Origin: Eledone cirrhosa | Lineage: Eukaryota | Direction: 5' to 3' | DNA length: 64,000 nt | Assembly: GCA_964016885.1 (NCBI GenBank) | Contig: CAXHJY010000726.1 | Location: 11,870-75,869, forward strand | Part shown: positions 36,421 to 63,953 of the stretch, piece after piece | How positions within the stretch are numbered: the first letter of the stretch is position 1 | Layout: each line of letters begins with the position of its first letter | Translations under genes and position numbers: made by a program | Notes under the pieces: generated by a model | The model's database searches: none | Told to the model about the DNA's origin: nothing | What the model saw: only the letters and a program-made list of their open reading frames with translations

Positions 36421-36454
36421 CTTCTGATGAAGGACTAGTGTCCGAAACGTTAAG
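36421..36454 (+). ncRNA. Minimal type I hammerhead ribozyme (PLE-type)
   Basis: CTT-CTGATGA-A-GGAC-TAGT-GTCC-GAAA-CGT-T-AAG: stem I CTT/AAG, stem II GGAC/GTCC, palindromic ACGT stem III. Confidence 0.78.
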
Positions 36455-38057
36455 CTTCTTTTCCAGTTATTTCAAGCGCGTTAAACTAATATATTTCTTC
36501 CATGTACTGTGTCGTTTGCTTTGTTATCTCTGTTTACTCTTTACGTAGCCATGTGTGTGCATGTGAATGCGTGTGTATGTGTGTGTATGTATATATGTGT
36601 GCGTATGTGTGTATGTATGTGTATTCTATATCTGGTCATTATTATGTATCTGGTAGTCATTTGTTTAAAATCCTTTGTTACCCTCATCAGCGGAGGTACA
36701 AAGTGAATTGTAAATGTATTTCACTGTTTTTAGATACTGTCGCATAGACACCTGTGTTATAACAGAAACGACCAAAATATTTAATAATTTGCAGTGCAAG
36801 TAACACCGTAAGAATAATCAAGCTCTCAGAATCAATTAAAATATGAAAATCAACTTTCGGAAATAAACTGTTACAGTATACAAGGAATATCATAAATGCA
36901 TTATTCTGTTTATATTCATCATGACACAGACGCCTGTACTGAAAAAACATTACATAAAAGTCTAAATGATCTATATACATCTGTTGATTTTCATATTCTG
37001 ATTTTGTTGTGTGTTAATCTCGTAAGACTTTGATACCTTATCTTTTCATATATCTTTGACACCTTATATTTTCAACACTGATTTTCTATACTTATTCCAT
37101 TTAGCAGTTTAATGCCTGCACTTTCTAAACATTTTAAGTATACTTTTTCTCTATTTGGAGATAACCGTGGAACATAACTCACACCTAACAAAATTTATAT
37201 CTAACACGTTATACTCCTGACAACTTCTTTAGTCTATAATAAAATCTTGGAGATCCCTCTATATATCACAGCTCGTCTGATGATTAATTAAAATATGTTG
37301 AGCGTGAAACTTTGAATTCCAATGTATAATCACTAACGGACTCCATCATATTATACATATTTCTTTCTACTATAATCCGTATATTAAGTTAGTTCGTGTA
37401 AAAAGCTATAAAATCTCAGGTGACTGATATCTAATGGTGTTTGAAGCTTTCTTGTATTAACATCATTTAGATCTTTTAGGGTTACGCTGAAAAAAATTCG
37501 GTGAGATTCACTCGTTCCACATATAGGCGTATAAGATCTAAACAAGTATAAACACTTATGATAAAAAATATGGAGAACAACTTTTGATAGGATGATCTGC
37601 TACAAAATTGTATATTGGAAATTCCTAAGAAAATATTCATGAAGAATTTCTTTTAGGAATCCACACTGAACTTATGAATATAGAAAACTAGTGTTTGATA
37701 AATAGAAAGTTGCTCAAGAAAATTGTGATAAAATCCTATGATGTCGGGTTTAGGTCCACTGCATTTATAGCCTTGACTTAATCACATGCTTTGTGTATAA
37801 AATTTGGTAGCAACAATCTAGAGGCCTGTCGTTCACACACACACACACACACACACACACACACACACACACACACACACACACACACACACACATGGCT
37901 AAGTACATATGTATATATGCCTATATATATATATACATCATACGATGAAATATTGGTGTTGGTAGCAAACCAAGCACTCTATGCACAGGCAGAGTGTATA
38001 TAATAGAAAAAACGAGGAAGCTTCGTTTACATATGAAAAATATTTATTGTGTATCGA

Positions 38058-38147
38058 CCTGTTACGCGCGTTTGGCAGAAGATTGGCTCAAGGTGACCCG
38101 TAGGCATTATGGACCCGACTCCAGTATCGATCTGCTCCTCAGACTGG
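38058..38147 (-). ncRNA. Degenerate hammerhead ribozyme (GAAA changed to CAAA)
   Basis: Minus strand reads CCAGT-CTGAGGA-GCAGA..~50 nt..TCTGC-CAAA-CGCGCG-TA-ACAGG, with palindromic ACGCGCGT. Confidence 0.55.
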
Positions 38148-38224
38148 TGAGGCGACAAAACATATATTTTTGTTGTGTTATGTGGACCGAGGATGTATGT
38201 ATATATATATAGGCATCTCCCTAT

Positions 38225-38516
38225 TTTTTTGTGTATGGGCGTAGGTGTATATTTTGGTGTAATTGGTGGGGCGGCAATGCGGGTGTATTCACCGGTATTC
38301 ATGTTCGTATTTAAGGATTCGTGTATGTGTGCGTGCACGCATTTGGGCGCGTTTTGGAATGTGTATTGGTTAGTCAAGGACTTGTTTTGGTGTAAACAGG
38401 AAGCAGGGATTTGTGTAGTGTGCTAGGTAAATACGCACATGAATACCGGTCAATACACACCCTCATTGCCGCCTCACCAATTACACCAAAATATACACAT
38501 ACGCCCATACACAAAA
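38225..38516. repeat. ~90 bp imperfect inverted repeat
   Basis: 38225-38313 versus 38428-38516; begins just after (TA)n. Confidence 0.8.
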
Positions 38517-62190: not shown

Positions 62191-62401
62191 TATATATATA
62201 TATATATATATATATATATATATATATATATATATATATATATATATATATATATATGTATGTATGTATATATATATATATATATGTGTATATATATATA
62301 TTTATATATATATATATATAATAATAATAAATTTGAAGACTAAAATCCAAAGAGGGTTCGATAAGGATAAATATATATCAAATATATAAGAACCGTAGAG
62401 C

Positions 62402-63473
62402 CGGATATAGGGGTCATCTCCCTTGTCTAATGCCATGTGCGTTTTTCACCGCTAGTTGACTCCTTTGCCGCCAGGATAAAACTCGTTGACAACGTAAACT
62501 CCGTTCCACTTATTCTAGTAGGCTTTTATATTTATATGTGAGCTGATAGAGTACTGTCTAAGGATTTACAGAAACCCATGAAGCTAGATTTAACACCTTT
62601 CTAGTGGGTCCGGGTATGATTTTACATTCATTTAAATTATTGACGTATTGTTTTATTGATATTTTTTATCTGTTTGGCCCGAATCTTCCTTTATCGATTT
62701 TAAATCGTATGGTTGATTGTAGACTTGTTCTATATGTGACGGTATTTTAACGATAGTTATAGCTCTGATTCATCTGAATTATTGAGCCCTCTGCCGCTCA
62801 TATCGAATTTCGTTTTTCGTGAACTCGTGCGCCGATTTTTCGATACTCGATCTTTCTAATATATTTAGCTCTGGACATAGCTATCCACCAGTTAATTTTA
62901 TTGCTCATTTTTTGTCGATTCTATTGAGTGATGAATAGCTTTTGTTTTATTTTAACATGTCTATTGAGCACTCTAATTCGATATGTGTATTTCCACATTC
63001 ACTCGAATTGTTTTCGCGGATATAGGGGTCATCTCCCTTGTCTAATGCCATGTGCGTTTTTCACCGCTAGTTGACTCCTTTGCCGCCAGGATAAAACTCG
63101 TTGACAACGTAAACTCCGTTCCACTTATTCTAGTAGGCTTTTATATTTATATGTGAGCTGATAGAGTACTGTCTAAGGATTTACAGAAACCCATGAAGCT
63201 AGATTTAACACCTTTCTAGTGGGTCCGGTATGATTTTACATTCATTTAAATTATTGACGTATTGTTTTATTGATATTTTTTATCTGTTTGGCCCGAATCT
63301 TCCTTTATCGATTTTAAATCGTATGGTTGATTGTAGACTTGTTCTATATGTGACGGTATTTTAACGATAGTTATAGCTCTGATTCATCTGAATTATTGAG
63401 CCCTCTGCCGCTCATATCGAATTTCGTTTTTCGTGAACTCGTGCGCCGATTTTTCGATACTCGATCTTTCTAA
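62402..63473. repeat. 615 bp tandem duplication (1.7 copies) fused to a PLE A end (62320-62401)
   Basis: Units start CGGATATAGGGGTCATC at 62402 and 63017 and are nearly identical. Confidence 0.92.
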
Positions 63474-63490
63474 TATATATATATATATAT

Positions 63491-63953
63491 AAAAGACGTA
63501 AAATATGAAAATTTTAAAAAATTTTTAAAAATTAACTTACTTACTAAAATTTTCACTCCAACTAATCAGTTTCTGCAATGCGATAAAGACAGTTACGTAA
63601 TAAACTGTCGAGAATTCATTGCGTCATCAGGGAGTCTATTCTCAGCTAAGTCTCCAGGCAATGCGCGGACACTGGGGACTCATATAAAAATAATAGACTC
63701 CTTATGACGCAATGAATTCTCGACAGTTTATTACGTAACTGTCTTTATCCCATTGCAGTAACTAATTAGTTGGAGTGAAAATTTTAGTAAGTAAGTTAAT
63801 TTTTAAAAAACTTTTTTAAATTTCTTATTTTACGTCTTTTATATTATTGTTCTGCATCCTCCTGCATTGAACCACCTAGGTACTATGACATAACCTGTGT
63901 ATTTGCTGGCATTAGCGTACATCTGTACGCATATGTTAGTAGATATACTAAAT
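63491..63953. mobile_element. PLE-type foldback carrying two hammerhead copies
   Basis: 63491-63640 is inverted at 63692-63841; the right copy continues ~110 nt. Confidence 0.8.
63555..63635 (-). ncRNA. Type I hammerhead ribozyme, canonical core, extended stem II
   Basis: Minus strand reads ACTCC-CTGATGA-CGCAATG..CATTGCA-GAAA-CTGATTAG-TT-GGAGT. Confidence 0.8.

What the first reader, a model, noticed from the sequence alone, without database searches (positions are those of the whole stretch)
36421..63790. Collection of divergent hammerhead ribozymes, each with its own palindromic stem III
Seen: at least eight hammerhead folds in ~27 kb, at 36421(+), 38058(-), 40265(-), 41794(+), 52867(+), 53157(+), 59923(+) and 63555(-), plus a mutated copy at ~63697(+). 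Each lies near a (TA)n-bounded element end. Stem III differs by family and is usually a perfect palindrome: ACGT, ACGCGCGT, ACAATTGT, ACCGGT, ATGCGCAT, ACTAATTAGT. Established: Penelope-like elements carry minimal type I hammerheads whose short palindromic stem III is thought to allow cleavage as dimers. Inference: the distinct palindromes could act as a family-specific pairing code, so co-resident PLE families dimerise and process only their own transcripts.
Basis: partly seen in the sequence, partly recalled or inferred. Interest (0 to 1): 0.75.

Follow-up and report, generated by a model that had tools for sequence, protein, structure and literature searches.

The report
Dimer-type hammerheads of Hydra retroelements
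These are real copies of a known small RNA motif, predicted to cut itself, at the ends of common jumping genes; their self-matching third stem fits the published idea that such motifs work in pairs, but different families reuse the same palindromes, so it is likely not a family-specific code.

Summary
All nine sites are real type I hammerhead folds at the stated coordinates, and they come from seven repeat families. Three of the seven are 5'-truncated 3' ends of Hydra-clade Penelope-like elements (PLEs). Two are non-coding tandem (retrozyme-like) units and two are unplaced. Stem III self-complementarity is far above chance and is kept by compensatory changes, as the published dimer model requires. 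The code idea is not supported. In a genome sample, 24 of 60 families share their stem III with another family. After strict merging of relatives, 7 sequences still recur across lineages (ACAATTGT in three), with no sign of avoidance. Stem III changes no faster than stems I and II between sister families. A dimer must also pair helix I across molecules, so the palindrome could be only half of any lock. The scan reached the same verdict on the code before, in this genome and in others. Cleavage and expression are untested.

The parts
36421..36454 (+). Hammerhead, family F1: intact core, stem III ACGT (36447-36450), predicted cut after 36451; short old repeat, parent element not found
38058..38147 (-). 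Hammerhead, family F2: stem III ACGCGCGT; this copy has G12C (family majority G); parent element not found
39987..41955 (.). One head-to-head insertion of Hydra-type PLE family F3/4: long arm on - (41688 to 39987, interrupted by another repeat near 40962-41365), short inverted arm on + (41695-41955)
40265..40370 (-). Hammerhead F3/4, U4C core, stem III ACAGTTGT (a G.U variant of ACAATTGT)
41794..41898 (+). Hammerhead F3/4, U4C core, stem III ACAATTGT
52054..53055 (+). 3' end of Hydra-type PLE family F5, 5'-truncated, ending at (TA)n
52867..52904 (+). Hammerhead F5: intact core, stem III ACATTGT (not a perfect palindrome); Rfam HH9 E 0.003
53116..53270 (+). Family F6: tiny non-coding unit between (TA)n tracts; elsewhere in tandem with a period of about 160-170 nt
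53157..53192 (+). Hammerhead F6, U3-A8 core, stem III ACCGGT
58819..60121 (+). 3' end of Hydra-type PLE family F7 (tail of the endonuclease frame plus 3' repeat), ending at (TA)n
59923..59993 (+). Hammerhead F7: intact core, 8-bp stem I, stem III ATGCGCAT
63487..63969 (.). Head-to-head pair of family F8, a non-coding unit of about 541 nt that forms long tandem arrays elsewhere (retrozyme-like)
63555..63635 (-). Hammerhead F8: intact core, stem III ACTGATTAGT (family ACTAATTAGT)
63696..63776 (+). Hammerhead F8, damaged core
56313..57900 (+).
57759..57809 (+). F9 hammerhead-like fold: U4A core, non-palindromic hairpin stem III
60287..60337 (-). F9 hammerhead-like fold (U4A)
62123..62173 (+). F9 hammerhead-like fold (U4A)
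39871..39921 (-). F9 hammerhead-like fold (U4A)
48790..48840 (-). F9 hammerhead-like fold (U4A)
20349..20414 (+).

Best explanation
The sites are type I hammerhead motifs near the 3' ends of truncated Hydra-type Penelope-like elements and of short, likely dependent repeats, and their stem III is self-complementary likely because two identical motifs on one tandem transcript must pair to cut. Shown: the folds, the families, the link of F3/4, F5, F7 and F9 to a C-terminal GIY-YIG frame (with RT for the first three), and compensatory change in stem III. Inferred: alone, these stems are too weak to close; in a partial-tandem or array transcript two copies swap strands, so helix III (palindrome on palindrome) and helix I both form between copies. 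Any self-complementary sequence does this job. Palindromes therefore drift by compensatory and G.U steps, differ between old lineages and recur by descent or convergence. A preference for like over unlike partners would be a by-product of divergence in helices I and III and of pairing in cis. Most genomic copies are single, truncated and probably inert.
For: Hits chosen on core and stems I and II only: 12 of 34 distinct stem III segments are perfect palindromes (shuffled mean 2.9, maximum 9 in 5000) and 20 of 34 are self-complementary allowing G.U or an odd centre (mean 5.4, maximum 14). Between 14 sister pairs, 10 of 14 changed stem III pairs stay paired, 5 by double change. Monomer hairpins of the palindromes cost +1.5 to +6.0 kcal/mol and ACGT cannot close, while homoduplexes give -1.7 to -13.3. 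Sharing: 24 of 60 families; 7 sequences span lineages after strict merging. Change rates between sisters: stem III 14 of 44 pairs, stem I 16 of 56, stem II 29 of 56; Fisher p 0.36 for III against I+II. Hydra motifs. Published dimer model and varied palindromes: PMC4209133 and the Fig. S8 legend of PMC3088659.
Against: No cleavage or expression was tested. 36 of 60 families had a stem III seen in no other family, sister families often differ in stem III, and the window's palindromes are mostly orthogonal in computed energy, which a code would also give. The sample is small and many families are singletons. In a different PLE, hammerhead mutants did not affect insertion in vitro and cleavage needed the protein (PMC11167929), so even the dimer role may not matter for mobility.
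Confidence: 0.8

Rival explanations
1. Family-specific pairing code: distinct palindromes are selected so that co-resident families dimerise and process only their own transcripts.
For: Palindromes are stable within families (no variant at 10% or more in the F7 stem III in four public runs). There are 45 distinct stem III sequences in 60 families. Among the eight window sequences compared, only ACAATTGT/ACATTGT cross-pairs almost as well as the weaker homodimer.
Against: ACAATTGT occurs in three lineages; ACCGGT, ACGT, ATATATAT, ATATGTAT, ACGATTGT and ACATATGT in two each. Collisions among 8-mers: 14 against 2.4 (uniform) and 7.4 (column-permuted) with looser lineages; 5 against 1.6 and 4.3 with strict merging; never fewer than chance. 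No faster change between sisters. An F8 relative with a wholly different stem II keeps ACTAATTAGT. 68 of 3540 ordered family pairs pass both helix I and helix III, and 51 of them cross lineages against 18.5 when stem III is reassigned at random (undetected kinship inflates this). F9 has no palindrome.
Confidence: 0.07
2. The hammerheads are passengers: self-complementarity is kept for the ribozyme's own processing or circularisation, but cleavage is not needed for the elements to spread.
For: F9 reached at least 24,447 pattern matches with A at core position 4. U4C is common or fixed in several families. Hammerhead mutants did not block insertion in vitro in PMC11167929. PMC8557442 raises parasitism as a possibility.
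Against: Cores, stems and palindromes are maintained across about 60 divergent families with compensatory changes, which implies selection during element lineages. U4C is a tolerated natural variant (PMC3088659), and U4A may be too.
Confidence: 0.12
3. Chance folds in AT-rich repeat DNA.
For: The loose descriptor gives 1-5 hits per shuffled window. Most single sites fold no better than shuffles (z from -3.0 to +1.2).
Against: 82 hits in 0.8 Mb against 5.3 in shuffles; multi-copy families with conserved cores at a fixed distance from element ends.
Confidence: 0.01

Closest known systems
Hammerheads in the pLTRs of metazoan Penelope-like elements (Cervera and de la Pena 2014, PMC4209133; Lunse, Weinberg and Breaker 2017, seen only as a title and through a review)
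   Same: Type I topology, short helix I, often long helix II with an extra base after A9, palindromic helix III, U3-A8 variant, many divergent families per genome, mostly single truncated copies, head-to-head pairs.
   Different: Helix III here is mostly 6-10 nt, longer than the minimal form. Density by my looser descriptor is about 98 intact-core hits per Mb, far above the thousands per genome reported there, but the descriptors differ.
Hydra clade of C-terminal EN+ PLEs (Craig et al. 2021, PMC8557442), which includes Hydra-1_Obim from an octopus
   Same: DKT motif, CxCx5C linker, C-terminal GIY-YIG without CCHH, CxxC and CxH near the end, (TA)n insertion, hammerhead.
   Different: F5 is at least 4.6 kb, whereas Hydra elements are generally under 3 kb. 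F7 reads RWI where RWK is described. F9 has a U4A core.
Metazoan non-LTR retrozymes (PMC7229834; bioRxiv 10.64898/2026.07.22.740005)
   Same: F8 and F6 are short hammerhead-bearing units found both dispersed and in tandem; F8 has no long reading frame.
   Different: F8's unit (about 541 nt) exceeds the 150-450 bp range given. Circular RNA was not tested.
Repeat-type dimeric hammerheads (Perreault et al. 2011, PMC3088659, Fig. S8 legend; newt and ASBVd double hammerheads cited there)
   Same: Varied palindromic stem III/loop III sequences that can pair in a dimer; natural U3-A8 and U4C cores.
   Different: U4A was not found in print by two searches.

Membership tests
Type I hammerhead ribozyme | Core C3 U4 G5 A6 N7 G8 A9 / G12 A13 A14 / A15.1-U16.1 / H17 | tested here: met
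   Met in F1, F5, F7, F8 and in the F2 majority; U3-A8 in F6; U4C in F3/4
Type I hammerhead ribozyme | Three helices, with stem I open | tested here: met
   compensatory changes between sister families
Type I hammerhead ribozyme | Self-cleavage after H17 | not testable with these tools
   needs an in vitro assay
Type I hammerhead ribozyme (family F9) | U at core position 4 | tested here: not met
   A in 24,447 pattern matches, C or G in 166; 791 matches read U, but 6 of 6 fetched were inversion junctions
PLE dimer-type hammerhead | Short self-complementary helix III that is unstable as a monomer | tested here: met
   not met for F9, whose hairpin scores -1.9 kcal/mol
PLE dimer-type hammerhead | Located in the terminal repeat of a PLE | tested here: inconclusive
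   Met for F3/4, F5 and F7; no coding parent found for F1, F2, F6, F8
Hydra clade PLE | [quoted passage not shown] | tested here: met
   F5, F7, F3/4: YRDD-type motif, then linker and endonuclease; F9 only the endonuclease part was seen
Hydra clade PLE | DKT in place of DKG | tested here: met
   F5 and F7; region not reached in F3/4 and F9
Hydra clade PLE | CxCx5C linker; no CCHH; CxxC and CxH near the end | tested here: met
   F5, F7, F3/4, F9, read from translations
Hydra clade PLE | RWK motif | tested here: inconclusive
   F7 reads RWI; not found in the F5 stretch scanned
Hydra clade PLE | Insertion into (TA)n | tested here: met
Hydra clade PLE | Placement in an RT tree with reference Hydra proteins | not tested
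   reference sequences were not retrieved
Non-LTR retrozyme (F8, F6) | Short non-coding tandem units, each with a type I hammerhead | tested here: met
   F8 arrays with a 541-nt period, longest stop-free frame 82 aa; F6 tandem at one of 30 loci shown
Non-LTR retrozyme (F8, F6) | Expressed as linear and circular monomer RNA | not testable with these tools

The most novel reading that the evidence does not exclude
Helix I and helix III together act as a two-part lock that lets co-active Penelope-like families and their retrozyme parasites process mainly their own RNA in trans. Sharing of palindromes would then occur mostly between families active at different times or mismatched in helix I.
Probability: 0.07. 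Interest if true: 0.7.

Novelty: new member of a known kind. Interest (0 to 1): 0.24.

Why it matters
As found, it adds members to a described class. Two things keep modest value. The genome offers dozens of natural hammerheads with different helix III sequences, a ready panel for testing the dimer model and cross-cleavage directly. Family F9, with a fixed U4A core in more than 24,000 matches, tests whether Penelope-like elements need their ribozyme to cut: it is either an active core variant not found in my searches, or evidence that cleavage is dispensable.

Tried and rejected
Rfam scan: dominated by microsatellite-driven miRNA matches; one hammerhead hit below the gathering score. Single-strand folding was uninformative for most sites. 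Pfam found no family for the endonuclease frames. Lunse et al. 2017 is not held, so I could not check whether it discusses heterodimers; one search for hammerhead + heterodimer + palindromic + retrotransposon gave two irrelevant papers. No RNA holder was listed for F7, which says nothing about expression. No coding parent was found for F2 in 7 further loci, or for F1 in two long stretches, where the upstream frame belonged to another element. The 791 F9 matches with a standard core were first read as an ancestral subfamily, then rejected because 6 of 6 fetched were head-to-head junctions. Descriptor hits at 29321 and 31937 were rejected as chance. The census stopped at 1.0 Mb instead of the planned 1.4 Mb. 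The descriptor used for the 60 families scores stem III pairing and so favours palindromes; removes that bias for the palindromy test only.

Full report
Setting. The window is G000:C753:11870-75869, in a 3.0-Gb genome. It is 36% G+C and rich in (TA)n. Earlier scan notes call the genome a cephalopod; I did not test that.

Observation. The ninth, 63697, is a damaged copy. The window gives 11 hits (5 perfect palindromes) against 1-5 (0-1) in 10 shuffles. Each site was searched against the genome; 370-3074 candidates were reported, 40 scored and 30 loci fetched per family. These are the copies most similar to the query, so they understate variation. The alignments show an intact or known-variant core in every family and a stable stem III. 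The nine sites are seven families, because 40265/41794 and 63555/63697 are arms of single head-to-head insertions. 52867 carries ACATTGT rather than a perfect palindrome. 38058 has a private G12C. 53157 is U3-A8, and 40265 and 41794 are U4C.

What the elements are. Copies share a 3' end 15-230 nt past the predicted cut site and are variably truncated at the 5' side. (TA)5 follows within 300 nt in 148 of 171 scorable copies (of 210 loci), against 732 of 3000 random positions. Long copies of F5, F7 and F3/4 carry RT and C-terminal GIY-YIG frames with a CxCx5C linker, one cysteine in the GIY-YIG core, and terminal CxxC and CxH; F5 and F7 show DKT. These match the Hydra clade description in PMC8557442 (section 11 read), whose supplementary table lists Hydra-1_Obim from an octopus with (TA)n insertion. 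No tree was built. F8 is a unit of about 541 nt with no frame over 82 codons, in long tandem arrays on contig C28. F6 is a tiny unit, seen in tandem at L074. Both resemble non-LTR retrozymes. No coding parent was found for F1 or F2.

Census. I scanned 100 evenly spaced 10-kb stretches plus the other fetched loci. The first 0.8 Mb gave 82 intact-core hits against 5.3 in shuffles; 1.0 Mb gave 98. The finding's stretch is about three times denser than this average but within the spread (0-14 per 10 kb). 611 hits were clustered with core and stem III masked. 60 clusters passed a fixed filter (standard, U3-A8 or U4C core; two or more members, or score 12 or more); the rest were dropped, and a few singletons kept may be chance. 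Of the 60 stem III sequences, 34 are perfect palindromes, 9 contain G.U, 9 have an odd centre and 8 are mismatched.

Is self-complementarity selected? Yes. With hits chosen without any stem III score, 12 of 34 are perfect palindromes (null mean 2.9, maximum 9) and 20 of 34 are self-complementary (null mean 5.4, maximum 14). Between sister families, 10 of 14 changed pairs stay paired, for example ACAATTGT to ACAGCTGT and ACGCGT to ACTAGT. Monomer hairpins are unfavourable and homoduplexes favourable. This is what the published dimer model needs.

Is it a code? For it: 45 distinct sequences in 60 families, stability within families, and near-orthogonal energies among the window's palindromes. 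Against it, five points. (b) Collisions among 8-mers are 14 against 2.4 and 7.4 expected with looser lineages, and 5 against 1.6 and 4.3 with strict ones; a code predicts fewer than chance. (c) Stem III changes at 14 of 44 pairs between sisters, against 16 of 56 in stem I and 29 of 56 in stem II (p 0.36; small, non-independent sample). (d) In a double hammerhead the cleaved strand comes from the partner, so helix I is also formed between copies (my inference from the geometry): 167 of 3540 ordered pairs pass on helix III, 438 on helix I and 68 on both. (e) PLE repeats and retrozyme units lie in tandem on one transcript, so a like partner is available in cis (PMC6765202 passages).

Missed family. 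It has a Hydra-type endonuclease and a hammerhead-like fold with A at position 4 and a hairpin stem III. It was the most frequent of the nine window families counted in the 1.0-Mb sample (18 hits; F6 had 17). Genome-wide pattern counts are 24,447 with A, 166 with C or G and 791 with U; the six U loci fetched were all inversion junctions. Searches for 'hammerhead' with 'U4A' found no paper. U4C is a known, weakened but viable variant (PMC3088659). F9 fails the strict core test, so I call it hammerhead-like.

Literature seen. PMC4209133: parts 1-2 of 4 (abstract through the start of methods). PMC8557442: passages, section 11, and supplementary metadata rows found by search; its hammerhead supplement was not read. 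PMC3088659, PMC7229834, PMC6765202 and PMC11167929: passages only; of Fig. S8 in PMC3088659 only the legend. bioRxiv 10.64898/2026.07.22.740005: part 1 of 5. Lunse et al. 2017: title and a review's summary only; its text or supplements may already treat palindrome diversity or heterodimers. A search for 'hammerhead ribozyme' with 'octopus' listed no dedicated survey. Earlier scan notes reached the same verdict on the code in this and other genomes; they are not independent support.

Verdict. The motifs are new members of a known kind, and the dimer requirement explains their palindromes (0.8). A selected family code is unlikely (0.07). Interest 0.24, mostly for the testable panel and the U4A family.

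Noticed in passing
window 57759-57809, 60287-60337, 62123-62173, 39871-39921, 48790-48840: Hydra-type family F9 has a hammerhead-like fold with A at core position 4 in 24,447 pattern matches (C or G in 166) and a hairpin stem III. No other base reached 3% at that position in four public runs. Activity is unknown.
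   Followed up: partly
L339-L344: Head-to-head inversion junctions of F9 fall on a short self-complementary word inside the hammerhead core in 6 of 6 loci fetched, creating apparent standard cores (791 matches). This suggests microhomology-guided strand switching.
   Followed up: partly
L211-L290, L311-L330: 98 intact-core hammerhead hits in 1.0 Mb of evenly spaced stretches (bootstrap 66-137; about 7 per Mb expected from shuffles), which extrapolates to roughly 2-4 x 10^5 in the genome. Four stretches hold 34 of the 98.
   Followed up: partly
window 40365 and 41798; census families 4, 13, 40, 49: The U4C core is the majority or only form in several families.
   Followed up: no
window 62402-62867 and 63017-63481: A 466-nt direct duplication (99.6% identical), not matched by the F8 loci; not identified.
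   Followed up: no
window 3945-8118 (+): Broken non-LTR retrotransposon with an RT match (Pfam RVT_1, E 2e-18) and what reads like an upstream AP-endonuclease frame (recalled motif, not tested).
   Followed up: no
window 45820-48704 (-): Broken non-LTR element with RT and zf-RVT matches, flanked by inverted repeats (44487-45575 with 50520-51572).
   Followed up: no
window 15568-16552 (-): Another broken Hydra-like endonuclease frame, 50% identical to F9's; no hammerhead was recognised within 2.6 kb downstream.
   Followed up: partly
L303 (oriented 1430-3184) and L301: A PLE of another type (DKG motif, GIY-YIG with two internal cysteines) lies near F3/4 copies.
   Followed up: no
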